IMG/VR virus record: IMGVR_UViG_2563366843_000005
DNA from: a virus
Lineage: Duplodnaviria > Heunggongvirae > Uroviricota > Caudoviricetes
Length of the DNA: 40,277 nucleotides
Strand: one strand, 5' to 3'
The notes under the pieces are model-generated. The model was not told where the DNA came from. It was given only the letters and a program-made list of their open reading frames with translations, and did no database searches. Shown here one piece after another: positions 2,015 through 8,174 of this stretch. The translations under genes and the position numbers were made by a program. Position 1 is the stretch's first letter; each line of letters opens with the position of its first letter.

Positions 2015-2112
2015 CTTTCATTAATCCCTGAATTGTTGGTTAATACGCTTGAGGGTGAATGCGAACAATAAAAAAGGAGCCTGTAGCTCCCTGATGATTT
2101 TGCTTTTCATGT

Positions 2113-2596: not shown

Positions 2597-2757
2597 ATCG
2601 CCTCCCGTTTATTATTTATCTCCTCAGCCAGCCGCTGTGCTTTCAGGGGATTTCGGATAACAGAAAGACCGGGAAATACCCAGCCTCGCTTTGTAACGGA
2701 GTAGACGAAAGTGATTGCGCCTACCCGGATATTATCGTGAGGATGCTTCATCGCCAT
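2569..2757 (-). CDS. hypothetical protein, lambda orf60a-like
   Basis: 62-aa ORF (60 aa from MKHPH) directly upstream of exo, overlapping its start as in lambda. Confidence 0.45.
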
Positions 2758-3428
2758 TGCTCCCCAAATACAAAACCAATTTCAGCCAGTGCCTCGTCCA
2801 TTTTTTCGATGAACTCCGGCACTATCTCGTCAAAATTCGCCATGTACTTTTCATCCCGCTCAACCACGACATAATGCAGGCCTTCACGCTTCATACGCGG
2901 GTCATAGTTGGCAAAGTACCAGGCATCTTTTCGCGTCACCCACATGCTGTACTGCACCTGGGCCATGTAAGCCGATTTTATGGCCTCGAAACCACCGAGC
3001 CGGAATTTCATGAAATCCCGGGAGGTAAACGGGCATTTCAGTTCAAGGCCGTTGCCGTCACTGCATAAACCATCCGGAGAGCAGGCGGTACGCATACTTT
3101 CGTCGCGATAGATGATCGGGGATTCAATAACATTCACGCCGGAAGTGAACTCAAACAGGGTTCTGGCGTCGTTCTCGTACTGTTTTCCCCAGGCCAGCGC
3201 CTTAGCATTAACTTCCGGAGCCACACCGGTGCAAACCTCAGCCAGCAGGGTGTGGAAGTAGGACATTTTCATGTCAGGCCACTTCTTTCCTGAGCGGGGC
3301 TTTGCTATCACGTTGTGAACTTCTGAAGCGGTGATGACGCCGAGCCGTAATTTGTGCCATGCATCATCCCCCTGTTCGACAGCTCTCACGTCGATCCCGG
3401 TACGCTGCAGGATAATGTCCGGTGTCAT
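2748..3428 (-). CDS. exo: lambda exonuclease (Red-alpha)
   Basis: 226-aa protein matching recalled lambda Exo along its full length ([50 protein letters not shown]...). Confidence 0.95.
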
Positions 3429-4210
3429 GCTGCCACCTTCTGCTCAGTGGCTTTCTGTTTCAGGAATCCAAGAGCTTTCACTGCTTCGGCCTGTGTCAGT
3501 TCTGACGATGCGCGAATGTCGCGGCGAAATATCTGGGAACAGAGCGGCAATAAGTCGTCATCCCATGTTTTATCCAGGGCGATCAGCAGAGTGTTAATCT
3601 CCTGCATGGTTTCATCGTTAACCGGAGTGATGTCGCGTTCTGGCTGACGTTCTGCAGTGTATGCAGTATTTTCGACAATGCGCTCGGCTTCATCCTTGTC
3701 ATAGATACCAGCAAATCCGAAGGCCAGACGGGCACACTGAATCATGGCTTTATGCCGTAACATCCGTTTGGGATGCGACTGCCACGGCCCCGTGATTTCT
3801 CTGCCTTCGCGAGTTTTGAATGGTTCGCGGCGGCATTCATCCATCCATTCGGTAACGCAGATCGGATGATTACGGTCCTTGCGGTAAATCCGGCATGTAC
3901 AGGATTCATTGTCCTGCTCAAAGTCCATGCCATCAAACTGCTGGTTTTCATTGATGATGCGGGACCAGCCATCAACGCCCACCACCGGAACGATGCCGTT
4001 CTGCTTATCAGGGAAGGCGTAAATTTCTTTCGTCCACGGATTAAGGCCGTACTGGTTGGCGACGATCAACAATGCGATGAACTGCGCATCGCTGGCATCA
4101 CCTTTAAATGCCGTCTGGCGAAGAGTGGTGATCAGTTCCTGTGGGTCGACAGAATCCATGCCGACACGTTCAGCCAGCTTCCCAGCCAGCGTTGCGAGTG
4201 CGGTACTCAT
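3425..4210 (-). CDS. bet: recombination protein Bet (Red-beta), single-strand annealing protein
   Basis: 261-aa protein matching lambda Beta; 4-nt overlap with exo. Confidence 0.95.
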
Positions 4211-4215
4211 CCGTT

Positions 4216-4512
4216 TTATACCTCTGAATCAATATCAACCTGGTGGTGAGCAATGGTTTCAACCATGTACCGGATGTGTTCTGCCATGCGCTCCTGAAAC
4301 TCAACATCGTCATCAAACGCACGGGTAATGGCTTTTTTGCTGGCCCCGTGGCGTTGCAAATGATCGATGCATAGCGATTCAAACAGGTGCTGGGGCAGGC
4401 CTTTTTCCATGTCGTCTGCCAGTTCTGCCTCTTTCTCTTCACGGGCGATCTGCTGGTAGTGACGCGCCCAGCTCTGAGCCTCAAGACGATCCTGAATGTA
4501 ATAAGCGTTCAT
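4216..4512 (-). CDS. gam: host-nuclease inhibitor Gam (98-aa short form)
   Basis: [21 protein letters not shown]... matches the lambda GamS core; an in-frame stop upstream excludes the longer lambda form. Confidence 0.9.
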
Positions 4513-4641
4513 GGATAAACTCCTGAAATTTTGATGTGCGGATCCAGACAGTGCGTTAACTGCATAGTTGTTTGAATGAACTCGCTTGATTAATCAAAAT
4601 GTTGGATCACACTATGTCTTGCTCAAAATCTGATAAATAAG

Positions 4642-4956
4642 GTGTCTAGAATGCTGATTGATAAGTTAAAGTCTTCTCCGATGTACCCAACCGCAGAAAT
4701 GGGTAAGCAGTCGAAAAAGAATCATTGGTATGTAAGGGAAAAGGGGAGTGATCAACCGCAAGACCAGACCTGGAGAGCTTGGTGGGAATCTCGCTCGCTT
4801 GGCAAAGGCCATATCAATTGGAGATCTACATGCGTAGCAGAAAATGTACTCGATCCATTCAATCCGCCATCTCGGTTTGAGGTTGATTTCAAAGCCCCTG
4901 ATGGGAGTATCTACAACCTTGAATTTGCTTTGGCTCCACACGGCCCAAACAAGTGA
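4642..4956 (+). CDS. hypothetical protein (ATG at 4651), antisense to the pL operon
   Basis: 104-aa hydrophilic, Trp-rich ORF; AAGG about 9 nt upstream of ATG 4651; no recognisable family. Confidence 0.35.
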   Translation: MSRMLIDKLKSSPMYPTAEMGKQSKKNHWYVREKGSDQPQDQTWRAWWESRSLGKGHINWRSTCVAENVLDPFNPPSRFEVDFKAPDGSIYNLEFALAPHGPNK

Positions 4957-4960
4957 GTAG

Positions 4961-5371
4961 TTAGTGGCTCAGACCACCGCCAGTACCATTCAGGTAAACC
5001 TCCACGAGCAAATCTTTTGTGTACGTTCGTTCGATGCCGCGATGCAAGTAAAGCCGACCGCGCAAATTAGCTGATGCCGTCCAGGTACCATCTTTGTGTT
5101 TAACCAGCATACCTGGCCGGACGGCACCGCGATTAACGGTCTGAGTTCCGTAATGTTGATGAACCATAAAAACTCCTGCCCGTAAGCTGGGCTGCTGAAC
5201 ATATAGAGACTTCTGCGCGTATTCAGGCGGTGGATGGCCGCCGGTTGTCATAACTAAGCCGCCTCGTTGAAGCGACTGAGGTATGAAGTGTTGAGTTGAT
5301 TTCAGCTGGTCACACCGACGTTCACGCGTCCGCTTCACCCCTCGCACTCCCCGGAGCCTGCTGAAATTCAA
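4961..5371 (-). CDS. hypothetical protein, first ORF downstream of pL; possible N-like antiterminator
   Basis: GC-rich ORF starting at TTG or an internal GTG/ATG; N-proximal Arg-rich stretch (VKRTRERRCDQLK) resembles arginine-rich motifs of N proteins; no C-terminal similarity to lambda N. Confidence 0.3.
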   Translation of the reverse strand: MNFSRLRGVRGVKRTRERRCDQLKSTQHFIPQSLQRGGLVMTTGGHPPPEYAQKSLYVQQPSLRAGVFMVHQHYGTQTVNRGAVRPGMLVKHKDGTWTASANLRGRLYLHRGIERTYTKDLLVEVYLNGTGGGLSH

Positions 5372-5431
5372 GCTGCGGATCTAAGCGGTCATCGCAACGG
5401 CGAATCAGGTGGTTGCCGTATCGTTGTGTTG

Positions 5432-5487
5432 TTGCGACATGGTGATAATAGCTATTGCTATTAGTGATATCAATACTTATTGCTATT
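5432..5487 (-). promoter_or_regulatory. pL promoter with OL operators (-35 TTGATA at 5468-5473, 17-bp spacer, -10 TATTAT at 5445-5450, minus strand)
   Basis: Sigma-70-like hexamers on the minus strand; three TTGC-core 8-mers at 5432, 5455 and 5480 (about 25-bp spacing) mirror the array at PR. Confidence 0.5.
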
Positions 5488-5612
5488 GATTGATGCATTT
5501 TGATATTAACTGTTTGATAGCAAAAGGAATTAATTTTGTGACTTGCATCGCATAGCGATAACTGAAGCGGGGGTTGTGGTGGTTTTTTGAACGGTGTGTG
5601 ATGAGGGGAGGC

Positions 5613-5640
5613 AAAAGAAAACCCGGCACGACGGCCGGGG
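5613..5640 (-). terminator. rho-independent terminator ending the cI operon
   Basis: GC stem CCCGGC/GCCGGG with 6-nt loop, followed on the minus strand by a T-run (TTTTCTTTT), directly after the stop of the 287-aa gene. Confidence 0.6.
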
Positions 5641-5643
5641 AAA

Positions 5644-6507
5644 TCATTTCGCATCTACAATAAATAACCTGTTTATCTGGCCTTTTTTAACAGTAGCCTT
5701 TGCGGTTATAGTGAATACTGCAGATGGATCACCTTTGGTTGATATATATGCACTAAGAGCTCTAATATACGGGTTATTCTTCTTTCCTGCAGCTGGATCG
5801 CTAATTTCAGCAGTGATTCTCTTTTTTGAGTCATCACCATCTAAAATTATTTTAGCTGTCATATTTTGTGCATCAAATTCTGTAAGAAAAGCACGATACT
5901 CACGAAGACCGAGAACTTCATCATCATCAAGCCTATCAATTTCAGCTTTATCTCTCTCGTTAACTTTTAGAAGGCAGCCGTCAACATTTGTTGCAACACT
6001 TATCTGATCGCAAGTATTACCAATAGGTGATACTGCCTGCCTTACAGAGGGGCGAAGCTCTACAGCCATTCGGTCAATCAAAGAGATCAACTTATCAATG
6101 GTTCCAGCATCCTTGTTTCCTAGTGCCTCTATGGCCTTTTCAAGTGACTGCTGCAAAGCTTTCATTTCATCTTTCTTGTTAGAATTTCTCGCAAAAATAT
6201 ATTGTAGTATTGCGCCAAGTATAGTTGCGGCGATCCCCGAGAACAACTGGTTCTGAGTGGCGAAGTTAAGAACTGCTTCAAGAGTAAAGCAGTTAGCTTT
6301 TGCTTCGCGTGCGTAAACCTTAACTTCCTGATAATTAATGTATTTACTATATTTTTGTGTAACAGAGAAAGAAGCTGCTGTTGAGAGAACTTTAGAAAAA
6401 CCCTTTAGGGATTCTCCTAGGCAGTTCAAATCTATTTCATGATTTAAAGCATCTTTTCCGTCATACCTAAGAGAGATTTTTATATCCTGTAAAGCGTCAC
6501 AATCCAT
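5644..6507 (-). CDS. hypothetical protein in the rexAB-equivalent slot; candidate exclusion or defence protein
   Basis: 287-aa ORF, visibly AT-rich, 66 bp downstream of cI on the same strand, followed by a terminator; one central hydrophobic segment ([18 protein letters not shown]); no recognisable family. Confidence 0.6.
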
Positions 6508-6573: not shown

Positions 6574-7266
6574 TTATCCATGTTTCCTGTACGTCTGGGG
6601 CATGCTCCCAATAACCTTACCGAAGATGAACACCCGGTTCATCTCGTCTTTCTCGATCGGGTCCCACGGTGAGTAGCTCTTGTTATCAGAGATAACCAGC
6701 AGCTTATCCTTCATCATTTGCAGGCGCTTTACATGGGCGGTGTCGTCGTACAGAAACGCATAGATGCCATCACCGTCGAAAGATTTAACCGTGATATCAA
6801 CGAACAGCAGATCACCTGGTTCGATCGTTCCTGACATGCTGTCACCACGCACGTTAATGATGCGGATATTTTCCGCCTTCCTGCCATCGAACATGTGACG
6901 AGCATCGTCAAACGAGTACTCAACCGAGCGTAGGACTTCTACAAACTCACGGTTGATGACTCCCGGCCCGGCACTCACTTCTATATCAAGAACGTCAATC
7001 TTGAAGTATTTGGAATGGTTGACAGTAGGCTTCCCTGATTGTTGACCGTCATTTCTCATCGGGCCTATGCCTGATGAGAGCCACTCTGTTCGAACACCCA
7101 ATGCATTAGCTATTTCAACAATTTTTGTTGAGCCGCGCGCGTTGCCGCTTGTCAGTCTCCAGATTGTTGGTTGAGCTACGCCAGACGCCTTTGCAAGAGC
7201 GCCTTGAGACATCCCAGATTGTTCCATCGCTAGGTTTAAGCGATCAGCAAGAGTTTCTTTTTTCAT
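6574..7266 (-). CDS. cI: CI-type prophage repressor (HTH plus S24 LexA-like peptidase domain)
   Basis: N-terminal HTH; Ala-Gly cleavage site (VSAGPG); GDSM serine and downstream KRL lysine of S24 peptidases; start set at ATG 7264-7266 (leaderless relative to putative PRM) rather than the upstream ORF start at 7323. Confidence 0.85.
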   Translation of the reverse strand: MKKETLADRLNLAMEQSGMSQGALAKASGVAQPTIWRLTSGNARGSTKIVEIANALGVRTEWLSSGIGPMRNDGQQSGKPTVNHSKYFKIDVLDIEVSAGPGVINREFVEVLRSVEYSFDDARHMFDGRKAENIRIINVRGDSMSGTIEPGDLLFVDITVKSFDGDGIYAFLYDDTAHVKRLQMMKDKLLVISDNKSYSPWDPIEKDEMNRVFIFGKVIGSMPQTYRKHG

Positions 7267-7275
7267 AAGTTTTAA

Positions 7276-7345
7276 TTTATACGCTTGCGTATTGATGGTC
7301 AAAACACGTTTTGCTATTGTCATGGTTAATACGCATTGCTATTAT
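7276..7345. promoter_or_regulatory. OR operator region with divergent PRM (leftward) and PR (rightward; -35 TTGTCA 7317-7322, -10 TATTAT 7340-7345)
   Basis: TTGC-core 8-mers at 7285, 7311 and 7336 at the same spacing as at pL; 14-bp palindromes ATACGCTTGCGTAT (7279-7292) and CAAAACACGTTTTG (7300-7313); PRM-like TTGACC-15-TATAAA on the minus strand ending next to the cI ATG. Confidence 0.55.
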
Positions 7346-7376
7346 TCATTCATTGTAATACCAATAGGAATTGATA

Positions 7377-7604
7377 ATGACAAATCAAACCATTCAACTC
7401 GCAATCAGTATTACAGGTAGTCAAAAACGACTGGCAGATCTATGCGGTGTAGCCCAGCCCACTGTTTGGCGTTGGCTACACGGTGGCGGAATTGATGCCC
7501 GCTATGTAATGAAAATTGTCTCAGCCACTGGTGGAAAGATTAAGCCAGCAGATATTCGTCCCGACCTCGCACCATTGTTTAACGCGAGTAATTCTGCCGC
7601 CTAA
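7377..7604 (+). CDS. cro: Cro-like HTH regulator
   Basis: Small HTH protein (QKRLADLCGVAQPTVWRW) divergent from cI and directly downstream of PR. Confidence 0.7.
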   Translation: MTNQTIQLAISITGSQKRLADLCGVAQPTVWRWLHGGGIDARYVMKIVSATGGKIKPADIRPDLAPLFNASNSAA

Positions 7605-7634
7605 TCTGCGGCGTTAACTGATAAGGCGATGATT

Positions 7635-8174
7635 ATGCAACCACTTACATACCAACAGACTAGCGGATTTAGCCCGACTGCGGTGATAAATCGTTCTCAA
7701 ATAAAACAGGTGCCAGGCCACGAAAAAATTCGTGATGCCGTCCGCGCCTGGTCTGCTGAAGATAATCAGGATGTAGTTGCCGCACTCATTGTGAATGAGT
7801 ATCGAGCACAGGGCGGCGGCACCATCGATTTTCCTGATGATGTCAGTCGTGCACGCCAGAAGCTGTTCCGCTTCCTCGATAACAAATTCGATTCTGAAAA
7901 ATACCGAAATAACGTGCGTGAACTGACCCCGGCAATTCTGGCGGTATTACCGCTGGAATATCGCGGCCACCTGGTTGAGCAGGATAGCTTCATGGCTCGG
8001 CTGGCTGAAATGGAAAAGGAACTCAGTGAGGCAAAGCAGGCGGTCATTCTCAACGCACCACGCCACCAGAAACTGAAGGAGATGAGTGAAGGCATTGTGT
8101 CGATGTTTCGAGTGGACCCGGATCTGGCTGGTCCATTGATGGCGATGGTCACCACCATGCTGGGGGCAATATGA
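7635..8174 (+). CDS. hypothetical early regulatory protein in the cII position
   Basis: 179-aa ORF between cro and O; much larger than lambda CII with no recalled similarity to it. Confidence 0.4.
   Translation: MQPLTYQQTSGFSPTAVINRSQIKQVPGHEKIRDAVRAWSAEDNQDVVAALIVNEYRAQGGGTIDFPDDVSRARQKLFRFLDNKFDSEKYRNNVRELTPAILAVLPLEYRGHLVEQDSFMARLAEMEKELSEAKQAVILNAPRHQKLKEMSEGIVSMFRVDPDLAGPLMAMVTTMLGAI

What the first reader, a model, noticed from the sequence alone, without database searches (positions are those of the whole stretch)
4642..5371. Unrecognised convergent ORF pair replaces the kil-cIII-ral-N module between gam and pL
Downstream of pL, lambda encodes N, then ral, sieB, cIII and kil before gam. 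Here that interval holds only two ORFs. A GC-rich minus-strand ORF (4961-5371) starts at TTG and carries an Arg-rich stretch (VKRTRERRCDQLK) reminiscent of N-protein arginine-rich motifs, but its C-terminus is unlike lambda or phage-21 N. A 104-aa Trp-rich plus-strand ORF (4651-4956) sits antisense to the pL transcript with its own possible promoter (TTGATT near 4596). Either this phage uses a divergent N-like factor, or the GC-rich segment is partly a structured RNA (HK022 put-like) and only the plus-strand gene is real. The antisense gene is unusual in an early operon and could be a lysogen-expressed moron.
Basis: partly seen in the sequence, partly recalled or inferred. Interest (0 to 1): 0.6.

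Follow-up and report, generated by a model that had tools for sequence, protein, structure and literature searches.

The report
Kil gene, leader RNA, orphan partner
The "unknown ORF pair" is the phage's cell-division inhibitor gene kil behind a long, structured, untranslated leader, plus a small conserved gene of unknown function that always sits tail-to-tail with kil; kil is ordinary, but the leader RNA and the partner gene were not found described in the sources searched.

Summary
Only the last 68 codons of the minus-strand ORF (4961-5167) are a gene. It is a KilR-family FtsZ inhibitor, so kil is present, not replaced. The upstream 204 nt (5168-5371), including the Arg-rich stretch, is not coding. 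Relatives carry +1, +5 and -2 indels and a stop codon there, and substitutions show no codon-position bias, unlike kil.

This stretch belongs to a ~270-nt pL leader conserved from about +1 in 2206 of 5426 complete E. coli genomes. The phage has no N gene, and a covariance model of HK022/HK639 put RNAs finds nothing.

The leader ends in a conserved RNA element (5222-5285). A hairpin with heavy covariation pairs an AUG into its base, followed by an invariant block (MTTGGHPPP if translated). Rfam has no match. The element precedes kil modules in phi80, HK225, HK639 and Enterobacter and Citrobacter prophages.

The plus-strand ORF (4651-4956, 101 aa, PHROG 16212) is a real gene under purifying selection with no recognisable fold or homologue. 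In all 13 loci found it is convergent with kil at exactly 4 nt.

The mechanisms proposed (kil gating, a Kil-linked lysogen gene) are inferred, not shown.

The parts
5445..5473 (-). pL promoter (TTGATA, 17-nt spacer, TATTAT). The predicted transcription start is about 5438-5440.
   Evidence: Consensus scan, 10 of 12 matches. It lies among palindromic operator-like repeats. Homology of the leader among relatives with different promoters starts at 5437.
5286..5438 (-). 5' module of the pL leader RNA. It is non-coding, occupies the place of nutL and N, and its function is unknown.
   Evidence: At least 95% identical in 2206 of 5426 E. coli genomes. Joined to at least four different promoter/operator types; in the two commonest the homology starts 8 nt after the -10. 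Always followed by the kil-leader element at 73 or 78 nt. No put match, no Rfam match, no coding signature, and its fold is no more stable than shuffles (z = 0.39).
5296..5371 (-). Possible long-range helix UUGAAUUUCAGC (5371-5360) with GCUGAAAUCAA (5306-5296), enclosing a G-rich 53 nt that includes the Arg-rich reading frame.
   Evidence: Read from the sequence. The two variable positions (5362 A>G, 5298 C>U) both keep pairing as G-U. This is weak support only.
5222..5285 (-). Conserved kil-leader RNA element. Hairpin 1 (5285-5249) pairs CAUA with UAUG, so the AUG at 5251-5249 sits in its base. The invariant block UUAUGACAACCGGCGGCCAUCCACCGCC (5253-5226) follows and can form hairpin 2 (GGCGG 5242-5238 with CCGCC 5230-5226).
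   Evidence: Covariance model R2 scores 88.6 bits, E 4e-24, with a single copy in the window. All 6 apical pairs covary and 98% of cells are paired; covariation score is 0.56 against 0.17 for shuffles (0 of 500) and 0.05-0.11 for slid controls. In the basal helix, pair 6-34 is CG 51, AU 6, UG 1. The minimum-free-energy fold gives the same hairpin. Wobble positions of codons 2-9 are nearly invariant in 132 instances, although the search pattern allowed any base there.
5168..5251 (-). Possible leader ORF MTTGGHPPPEYAQKSLYVQQPSLRAGVF, in frame with kil in this phage. Whether it is translated is unknown.
   Evidence: The peptide tail is variable in relatives. It stops 34-36 nt before the next gene in 47 of 162 distinct contexts, is fused or runs on in 70, and is out of frame in others. 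No codon-position bias: 4 synonymous against 5 non-synonymous, one of them a stop.
4961..5167 (-). kil: KilR-family cell-division (FtsZ) inhibitor, 68 aa. ATG at 5167-5165, Shine-Dalgarno AGGAG at 5177-5173, stop at 4963-4961.
   Evidence: phrog_294, E 1.6e-35. NF008465 covers profile positions 1-68 of 73, E 9e-17, but scores 60.8 bits, below the curated 92. Orthologues carry Pfam PF27398 KilR. PGAP calls the same 207-nt gene. Strong coding signature: 47 of 67 changes are at third positions.
4651..4956 (+). Orphan gene of 101 aa (PHROG 16212, WP_000904075.1), convergent with kil with a 4-nt gap.
   Evidence: phrog_16212 covers positions 1-101 of 101, E 9e-70. 19 clusters, all with named sources in Enterobacteriaceae. 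35 invariant columns. pN/pS 0.16-0.26. 13 of 13 loci are convergent with kil at a 4-nt gap, with partner Kil identity ranging from 38 to 100%. No fold match, no PADLOC hit, no remote homologues, and absent from 50,697 deposited phage genomes.
4513..4650 (+). AT-rich (37% GC) spacer with the candidate promoter of the plus ORF. TTGATT is at 4586-4591, inside the palindrome TTGATTAATCAA (4586-4597). The Shine-Dalgarno AAGGTG is upstream of the ATG at 4651.
   Evidence: TTGATT is conserved in Enterobacter homologues, and TTGACA takes its place in Cronobacter. No site reaches 9 of 12 in the consensus scan. GC content.
4996..5639 (-). Segment shared with Bievrevirus phages (Perceval, 4A7 and others). 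Window 4520-4995, which holds the plus ORF and the last 11 codons of kil, has no counterpart there.
   Evidence: Megablast matches cover query positions 497-1140 only. In those phages kil and gam are 75 nt apart.
5622..5639 (-). Intrinsic terminator ending the cI-DUF7946 (rex-position) transcript, just upstream of pL.
   Evidence: 6 G-C pairs followed by TTTTCTTTTG.
2074..2092 (-). Predicted intrinsic terminator inside the pL operon, upstream of the DksA-like gene, xis and int.
   Evidence: 8-bp stem followed by TTTTTATTGTT. The surrounding segment is 96% identical in phage lambda and in Stx phages, which use N.

Best explanation
Shown:
- The interval holds two real genes and one long untranslated leader.
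- (1) pL (5473-5445) starts a transcript whose first ~270 nt (5438-5168) encode no protein. There is no N gene and no HK022-type put RNA.
- (2) The leader ends in a conserved RNA element (5285-5222): a 12-bp interrupted hairpin that pairs an AUG into its base, then an invariant 26-28-nt block.
- (3) kil (5167-4961) follows. It is a 68-aa KilR-family inhibitor of cell division with its own strong Shine-Dalgarno sequence.
- (4) On the other strand, ending 4 nt from the kil stop, is a 101-aa gene of an orphan family. Wherever it occurs it is attached tail-to-tail to kil.

Inferred:
- The hairpin and invariant block form a post-transcriptional or termination gate that keeps the toxic kil module silent unless transcription from pL is strong or terminator-resistant. 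In relatives the element sits directly after the tL1 terminator. Rac kilR is known to be held down by Rho/NusG.
- The plus-strand gene is a prophage-expressed accessory gene. No terminator is predicted downstream of it, so its transcript would run antisense through kil and the leader. pL transcription would in turn run over it.
- Its product or its transcript most likely acts on Kil, as a safeguard against leaky Kil in lysogens.
For: Gene identities:
- Searches give the Kil profiles, which match only residues 69-136 of the long ORF.
- Searches show PGAP calling genes of 207 nt and 306 nt.
- Searches give Pfam KilR on orthologues.
- One search shows a coding signature in kil and none in 5168-5438.
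- One search gives pN/pS 0.16-0.26 for the plus ORF.

No N and no put:
- Searches find no N anywhere; the late antiterminator is QuuD.
- The put model finds nothing in the window, although at least 27 related loci carry put.

Leader:
- 2206 of 5426 genomes hold it at 95% identity or more.
- It is 96-99% identical in the 16 full-length phage hits, where the whole 644-nt shared segment is 87-95%.
- Homology begins about at +1 under different promoters.

RNA element:
- Searches give the model hit and the covariation; one search gives the fold.
- More than 120 viral contigs and 17 species-representative genomes of Enterobacter, Citrobacter, Scandinavium and Huaxiibacter carry it.
- kil lies within 1 kb downstream in 104 of about 125 loci, and a T-run terminator lies immediately upstream in 81 of 133.
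- phi80 annotates a rho-dependent tL1B about 140 nt downstream of the element.
- Rac kilR is de-repressed when NusG falls (PMC5793797).
- On the transcript, C exceeds G over the element, with C/G 1.67 for 5308-5231.

Plus ORF and kil linkage:
- 13 of 13 loci, about six sequence types, show the same 4-nt gap across different recombination modules.
- No terminator-like site is predicted on the + strand between 4956 and 6271.
Against: - No expression data of any kind were available.
- The promoter of the plus ORF is weak by consensus.
- The gate function of the hairpin is inferred from anatomy and from analogy with Rac and phi80.
- K-12 Rac kilR itself lacks this element and has a different 5' UTR carrying the sRNA KilS.
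- Hairpin 2 and the invariant block never vary, so their structure is untested.
- The plus ORF is absent from 184 of 197 kil-bearing loci, so Kil does not need it.
- Its linkage to kil could reflect one old insertion that travels with the 3' end of kil.
- NF008465 scores below its curated cut-off.
Confidence: 0.7

Rival explanations
1. The minus-strand ORF, or a shorter frame from GTG 5338 with Shine-Dalgarno GGAG at 5350-5347, encodes a divergent N-like Arg-rich antiterminator peptide (KRTRERRCDQLK).
For: - The phage has no N.
- RERR followed by C-D-Q resembles the lambda N core RERRAEK (lambda sequence from my own knowledge).
- In seven sequence variants the GTG is ATG.
- The commonest change in the frame is a silent AAG>AAA.
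Against: - Codon positions of changes are 8/5/5, with 13 non-synonymous against 5 synonymous changes.
- CAG>TAG at 5278 occurs in 18 variants, R>W and R>C fall in the motif, and GTG>GGG occurs once.
- Indels of +1, +5 and -2 occur in the frame.
- No Pfam, NCBIfam or PHROG hit lies outside the Kil part.
- No boxB-like hairpin was seen upstream by eye.
- The peptide would lack the NusA- and RNAP-binding parts of N.
Confidence: 0.04
2. The 5' module of the leader (5438-5286), alone or with the kil-leader element, is a cis-acting RNA of a new class. It would make RNA polymerase resistant to termination, standing in for N-nut or put.
For: - It sits where nutL/N or putL sit in relatives.
- It is conserved from about +1 whichever promoter drives it, and more strongly than the neighbouring kil coding sequence.
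- Viable phages (Perceval, 4A7) have the same N-less, put-less leader.
- The pL operon holds a predicted intrinsic terminator (2092-2074) shared with N-dependent lambda and Stx phages.
- The operon also holds a 448-nt untranslated stretch with C/G up to 2.36 between kil and gam.
Against: - There is no similarity to put in sequence or structure.
- The fold is no more stable than shuffled sequence (z = 0.39).
- Too little variation exists to test structure; only two wobble-compatible changes were seen.
- There is no second copy in the pR operon.
- Conservation could equally reflect recent spread or a recombination linker.
- Nothing shows that the predicted terminator works.
Confidence: 0.13
3. 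The AUG at 5251 starts a translated leader peptide (MTTGGHPPP...). Ribosome stalling at the polyproline run, which depends on EF-P, would couple translation to Rho access or to kil translation, as in peptide-based attenuators.
For: - The AUG and eight codons are conserved in more than 130 instances.
- PPP is a known EF-P-dependent stalling motif (established knowledge).
- In 47 of 162 contexts the frame stops 34-36 nt before the next start.
- The AUG lies in an A/U-rich gap between two hairpins.
Against: - Wobble positions are as invariant as the rest, which points to an RNA-level or DNA-level constraint.
- The AUG is paired in a stable hairpin.
- There is no good Shine-Dalgarno sequence; the only candidate, GAG, is 12 nt upstream.
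- The tail has no fixed length, frame or sequence.
- No synonymous excess is seen.
Confidence: 0.25
4. The plus-strand gene is an unrelated cargo gene (for example phage exclusion or host fitness). It would sit next to kil only because the kil-gam junction tolerates insertions and the cassette spreads by recombination within the 3' end of kil.
For: - It is present in only 13 of 197 kil loci and in 28 of 5426 E. coli genomes.
- The homology break with the closest phages lies inside the end of kil, at 4996.
- Morons in lambdoid phages commonly lie between operon genes with their own promoter (established knowledge).
Against: - It keeps the same 4-nt tail-to-tail junction with Kil partners that are only 38% identical, and beside three different recombination modules.
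- It was never found away from kil.
- It has no PADLOC hit.
Confidence: 0.35

Closest known systems
KilR of the E. coli Rac prophage, and the Kil proteins of phi80, HK225 and HK639
   Same: - A small (about 68-73 aa) protein matching the same profile families.
- It is encoded in the early left operon just before the recombination genes.
- Rac KilR inhibits FtsZ and is silenced through Rho/NusG (PMC5793797; PMC12482147 listed).
   Different: - This Kil ends ...GGGLSH, like the phi80, HK225 and O157 forms and unlike Rac KilR.
- It scores below the NF008465 cut-off.
- Its 5' UTR is unrelated to that of Rac, which carries the sRNA KilS.
- Function was not tested here.
The tL1 region of phi80 (tL1A intrinsic, tL1B rho-dependent) and the annotated 'terminator' of HK639 downstream of putL
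   Same: The same conserved hairpin and invariant block lies there, on the same strand and upstream of the kil module.
   Different: - In phi80, HK225 and HK639 the element follows an intrinsic terminator and an upstream gene (N, or put plus small genes).
- Here it follows a 135-nt non-coding module directly after pL, with no terminator U-tract.
- The records annotate only terminators there, not the hairpin or the leader frame.
HK022 putL/putR and HK639 putL antiterminator RNAs
   Same: Position only. Both are non-coding RNA directly downstream of the early promoter in a lambdoid phage without N.
   Different: There is no match to a put covariance model or by blastn. The length differs, about 135 nt against about 70, and no two-stem put architecture was found.
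Lambda N / nutL
   Same: It occupies the same map position, and the frame contains an Arg-rich stretch.
   Different: It is not a conserved coding frame, has no family hit, and no boxA/boxB was recognised.
Lambdoid 'morons' (lambda sieB, rexAB, bor, lom), and start-codon masking of toxic small genes as in hok/mok
   Same: - An extra gene inserted between operon genes relative to close relatives.
- A toxic small gene preceded by a leader frame whose start is buried in a helix.
   Different: - The plus ORF is antisense to the operon, has no predicted terminator, and is bound to one particular neighbour.
- No antisense RNA gene of the Sok type has been shown.

Membership tests
KilR / phage Kil (NF008465, PF27398, phrog_294) | Profile match over the whole ~70-aa protein | tested here: met
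   phrog_294 E 1.6e-35, covering profile positions 13-79 of 83. NF008465 covers positions 1-68 of 73, E 9e-17, but at 60.8 bits is below the curated 92 for that subfamily. PF27398 is recorded on the orthologues next to plus-ORF homologues.
KilR / phage Kil | Encoded in the early left operon upstream of gam and the recombination genes | tested here: met
   kil at 5167-4961, then gam, bet and exo, all on the minus strand downstream of pL. The same order is seen in Perceval, 4A7 and O157.
KilR / phage Kil | Blocks cell division by acting on FtsZ | not testable with these tools
   Known for Rac KilR from the literature only.
Lambda N antiterminator | A conserved protein-coding frame between pL and the first terminator | tested here: not met
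   Indels of +1, +5 and -2, a stop in 18 variants, and no codon-position bias. No N family hit.
Lambda N antiterminator | N-terminal arginine-rich motif that binds a boxB hairpin, with boxA nearby | tested here: inconclusive
   KRTRERR is present in the frame from GTG 5338. By eye there is no boxB-like 5-bp stem with a GNRA-like pentaloop and no clear boxA in 5438-5339. No model of nut sites was available.
HK022-type put RNA | Sequence and two-stem structure shared by putL, putR and the HK639 putL | tested here: not met
   Model R1, built from 11 put RNAs, gives a best window hit of E 0.59 inside cI and nothing in 5168-5440 or after pR. blastn is also negative.
HK022-type put RNA | Lies just downstream of an early promoter and acts in cis on RNA polymerase (beta' zinc-binding domain) | not testable with these tools
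   The position is compatible. The activity cannot be computed.
PHROG 16212 (plus ORF) | Full-length profile match | tested here: met
   Positions 1-101 of 101, E 9e-70. The family has no assigned function.
Moron (autonomous prophage-expressed insert) | Extra DNA relative to close relatives, between two operon genes | tested here: met
   Window 4520-4995 is absent from Bievrevirus relatives, where kil and gam are 75 nt apart.
Moron | Own promoter and own terminator | tested here: inconclusive
   Only weak promoter candidates exist, namely TTGATT conserved in Enterobacter homologues. No terminator-like site follows the gene.
Moron | Expressed from the repressed prophage | not testable with these tools
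   No transcript data.
Rfam families (any) | Covariance-model match for the leader | tested here: not met
   No match at gathering thresholds in the window. Only chance-level hits at E up to 10 in 4500-5700.

The most novel reading that the evidence does not exclude
The pL leader is a new kind of cis-acting regulatory RNA. This means the 135-nt 5' module conserved from +1, plus the covarying AUG-masking hairpin and invariant block. It would let an N-less, put-less lambdoid family, present in about 40% of complete E. coli genomes, control termination and kil expression in the early left operon. The orphan plus-strand gene would be a dedicated Kil antagonist, making kil and its partner a toxin-antidote-like cassette.
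Probability: 0.12. Interest if true: 0.8.

Novelty: new variant of a known kind. Interest (0 to 1): 0.45.

Why it matters
- Kil genes are toxic. In Rac, kilR matters for host physiology through Rho/NusG silencing and the oxidative-stress arrest.
- The form of kil most common in E. coli prophages sits behind a leader that nobody seems to have described. That leader has a well-supported RNA hairpin and a block invariant across genera.
- A clean, widespread RNA motif next to a toxic gene is directly testable.
- This phage family, which includes the isolated phages Perceval and 4A7, has neither N nor put. That raises the question of how its early left operon gets past terminators that lambda needs N for.
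- The orphan gene's strict attachment to kil gives a specific hypothesis, a Kil safeguard, for a protein with no other clue to function.
- For annotation, the 136-139-aa 'Kil' entries in some phage records are over-extended.

Tried and rejected
- Rfam, at gathering and permissive thresholds: nothing.
- Pfam, NCBIfam and PADLOC for the plus ORF: nothing.
- Profile search of 1.84 billion representatives: one full-length cluster only. The weak CHAP-repeat hit (P0022) was judged spurious.
- tblastn against deposited phages: no match.
- put homology: rejected.
- A second copy of either leader module elsewhere in the window, as for putR: none.
- Homology to the Rac kilR 5' UTR or KilS: alignment score at the level of shuffles.
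- AgvB-type anti-sRNA: AgvB lies after pR', not at pL. Only the CA-rich motif is shared.
- Whole-leader stability: z = -0.01, so there is no global structure signal.
- The co-occurring C>T and G>A changes at 5354 and 5333 are linked polymorphisms, not a base pair, because their neighbours cannot pair.
- The hairpin loop as a protein-binding boxB: rejected. The loops are interchangeable (triloops, UUCG, UACG), and the 'conserved' UUC...GAG simply extends the stem.
- Literature search for the peptide or the RNA block: no paper.
Full report
**Setting.** The window is a lambdoid prophage. It carries int (1-1143), xis, exo (2748-3428), bet (3425-4210) and gam (4216-4512) on the minus strand. It also carries a cI-like repressor (6574-7323, minus), cro (7371-7604), a YdaT-type cII analogue, and O and P. 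A near-identical prophage in E. coli UMB200201_11 is annotated with the late antiterminator QuuD and no N anywhere. pL is TTGATA-17-TATTAT at 5473-5445 on the minus strand. It lies just downstream of the terminator (5639-5622) of a DUF7946/DUF7947 gene that sits at the rex position.

**The observation.** Both ORFs are there: minus 4961-5371 (TTG, 136 aa) and plus 4642/4651-4956. They are the only sizeable ORFs between gam and pL. The segment is only mildly GC-rich, at 55% against 49% for the window.

**The minus strand is kil plus a leader.**
- NCBIfam NF008465 (FtsZ inhibitor protein) and PHROG 294 (Kil) match only residues 69-136 of the long ORF, and they cover the whole profile there.
- That part starts at ATG 5167, five bases after AGGAG.
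- PGAP calls exactly this 207-nt gene in near-identical and related genomes, as 'phage encoded cell division inhibitor protein'.
- Orthologues carry Pfam PF27398 KilR.
- The protein aligns with the Kil proteins of HK225, HK639, phi80 and Rac.
- So kil has not been replaced. N, ral, sieB and cIII are the genes that are missing.

**The upstream 204 nt of the long ORF are not coding.** I compared 91 distinct relatives of this leader type, of which 63 (at least 90% identical) were scored.
- kil shows 47 of 67 changes at third codon positions (47 synonymous, 20 non-synonymous).
- The frame from GTG 5338 to 5252 shows positions 8/5/5, with 13 non-synonymous against 5 synonymous changes.
- CAG>TAG at 5278 occurs in 18 variants, and R>W and R>C fall inside the Arg-rich motif.
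- Insertions of +1 and +5 and a deletion of 2 occur.
- A GTG>ATG change at 5338 and a silent AAG>AAA are the only hints the other way.
- I therefore reject the N-like reading. The 139-aa 'Kil' annotated in phage Perceval is the same over-extension.

**No put either.** Related loci do carry HK022/HK639-type put RNAs upstream of the same kil module; at least 27 loci were found by blastn. A covariance model built from 11 of them (A2, R1) finds nothing in the window with filters off. The best hit, E 0.59, lies inside cI. Rfam gives nothing.

**The leader.**
- Window 5438-5168 is at least 95% identical in 2206 of 5426 complete E. coli genomes.
- It is 96-99% identical in the 16 phages that cover it, where the whole 644-nt shared segment is 87-95%.
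- In 123 viral contigs it is joined to at least four promoter/operator types. In the two commonest, homology starts at TCGCAAC..., 8 nt after the -10 hexamer and within 1-3 nt of the expected start.
- The first 135 nt (the 5' module) are always followed by the second module at 73 or 78 nt.
- The 5' module has too little variation to test a structure, and it folds no better than shuffles.
- A candidate long-range helix (5371-5360 with 5306-5296) is supported only by two wobble-compatible changes.

**The kil-leader element (5285-5222).**
- It is shared with phi80, where it lies directly after tL1A. It is also shared with HK225 and with HK639, where part of it is annotated 'terminator'.
- A degenerate pattern that left all wobble positions free returned more than 120 viral contigs. 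The block AUGACAACCGGCGGCCAUCCACCGCC was nearly invariant in all of them, and sequence diverges right after it.
- It also occurs in 17 species-representative genomes of Enterobacter, Citrobacter, Scandinavium and Huaxiibacter.
- A covariance model (R2) finds one copy per locus, and one in the window at 88.6 bits.
- On the model-based alignment of 58 distinct sequences, all six apical pairs of hairpin 1 change on both sides and 98% of cells are paired. The covariation score is 0.56, against 0.17 for shuffles (0 of 500) and 0.05-0.11 for slid partners. The alignment is fitted to the model, which favours the structure, but the stem variants are obvious by eye.
- The helix continues downwards: CAUA pairs with UAUG. 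Pair 6-34 is C-G in 51 sequences, A-U in 6 and U-G in 1. The AUG at 5251-5249 is therefore part of the stem.
- RNAfold predicts the same hairpin.
- Loops are interchangeable (AAC, ACC, UUCG, UACG), so the hairpin looks structural and not like a specific protein site.
- The invariant block can form a second hairpin, but it never varies, so that is untested.
- If translated, the AUG gives MTTGGHPPP plus a tail with no fixed length or frame. In 47 of 162 contexts it stops 34-36 nt before the next gene. In this phage type it runs in frame into kil.
- A kil homologue lies within 1 kb downstream in 104 of about 125 loci, and 81 of 133 have a terminator U-tract immediately upstream.

**What the element probably does (inference).**
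- It marks the start of the kil module, right after the first early terminator.
- It buries a start codon.
- It is the most C-over-G part of the leader transcript, with C/G 1.67.
- phi80 annotates a rho-dependent terminator about 140 nt further on.
- Rac kilR is known to be held off by NusG/Rho (PMC5793797).
- I therefore think it gates the toxic kil module at the level of translation and/or Rho access.
- K-12 Rac itself lacks the element and has a different 5' UTR with the sRNA KilS, so this would be a parallel solution, not the same one.

**Does this phage need antitermination?** The pL operon contains a predicted intrinsic terminator at 2092-2074, before the DksA-like gene, xis and int. The surrounding segment is 96% identical in lambda and in Stx phages, which rely on N. 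The plus-ORF insertion also creates a 448-nt untranslated stretch between kil and gam, where the transcript reaches C/G 2.36. This makes a cis-acting antiterminator in the 5' module attractive, but nothing here shows it.

**The plus-strand gene.**
- It starts at ATG 4651; all homologues begin MLI.
- It matches PHROG 16212 over its full length.
- It belongs to a family of 19 clusters, and the members with a named source are from Enterobacteriaceae.
- It is under purifying selection: pN/pS is 0.16-0.26 with pS about 0.8.
- It has no Pfam, NCBIfam or PADLOC hit and no remote relatives among 1.84 billion representatives.
- It has no match in 50,697 deposited phage genomes.
- The AlphaFold2 model (pLDDT 74) matches nothing in PDB or BFVD.
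- Relative to the closest phages, window 4520-4995 is an insertion that also brings the last 11 codons of kil.
- In every locus where a homologue was found, it is convergent with kil with exactly 4 nt between the stop codons. That is 13 loci of about six sequence types, from E. coli, Enterobacter, Cronobacter and Huaxiibacter. Their recombination modules include Exo/Bet/Gam, RecT/YqaJ/GamL and an ExoX-like set. The partner Kil can be as little as 38% identical.
- Only 13 of 197 kil loci have it.
- Its promoter is not convincing. TTGATT at 4586-4591 is conserved in Enterobacter and replaced by TTGACA in Cronobacter, and the -10 candidates are weak.
- No terminator follows it.

**My reading of the plus-strand gene (inference).** It is a prophage-expressed accessory gene tied to Kil. 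Its transcript would be antisense to kil and the leader, and pL transcription would override it on induction. Whether the protein, the RNA or neither acts on Kil is open. An unrelated cargo gene hitch-hiking on the end of kil remains a serious rival.

**Verdict.** The finding is real as sequence, but its headline is wrong. kil is present, and there is no N-like protein and no put.
- a well-supported RNA motif, not found described in the sources searched, in front of kil modules across Enterobacteriaceae;
- an N-less, put-less pL leader conserved from +1 in about 40% of E. coli genomes;
- an orphan gene strictly coupled to kil.

Noticed in passing
window 5421-5436 (minus strand): The first bases of the pL leader, CGCAACAACACAACGA, contain the CA-rich motif given as the GcvB R1 target consensus (CACAACA) in PMC4104026. 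This could be an Hfq/GcvB contact or chance.
   Followed up: no
window 5644-6507 (minus strand): A 287-aa DUF7946+DUF7947 gene sits at the rexAB position between cI and pL, with its own terminator (5639-5622). It has a weak PADLOC PDC-S42 hit (E 1.5e-4) and may be a lysogen-expressed defence gene.
   Followed up: partly
L012:1317-1981 and L013:1435-1950: These two E. coli prophages carry both an HK639-type put RNA and the homologue of the phi80 'N' protein (WP_000564503.1) between pL and the kil-leader element. This raises doubt about what the phi80-type 'N' does.
   Followed up: no
window 4586-4597: A perfect 12-bp palindrome, TTGATTAATCAA, overlaps the candidate -35 of the plus-strand gene. 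It may be an operator.
   Followed up: no
window 4513-4960 (minus-strand transcript): The insertion of the plus ORF leaves a 448-nt untranslated stretch in the pL transcript between kil and gam. It is C-rich and G-poor, with C/G up to 2.36 and 20 YC dimers in 78 nt. Relatives have 75 nt there. Rho-dependent polarity on gam, bet and exo is possible.
   Followed up: partly
RefSeq records of relatives use the 68-aa form.
   Followed up: yes
L111:7250-7307: One viral contig holds a second, degenerate copy of the kil-leader element (48.5 bits) about 600 nt from the main copy.
   Followed up: no
L220:6406-6503 (K-12 Rac): The Rac kilR 5' UTR carries the annotated sRNA KilS, which ends at an intrinsic terminator upstream of kilR. 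It is unrelated in sequence to the leader here, but it is another case of a regulatory RNA in front of a kil gene.
   Followed up: partly
window 7629-8174: The gene at the cII position is a YdaT-toxin-domain protein (PGAP name in the near-identical genome), as in Rac-like immunity regions, and not a lambda-type CII.
   Followed up: no
L138 (near-identical prophage of strain UMB200201_11): PGAP annotates iss, ompC and emrE as cargo genes inside this prophage type.
   Followed up: no
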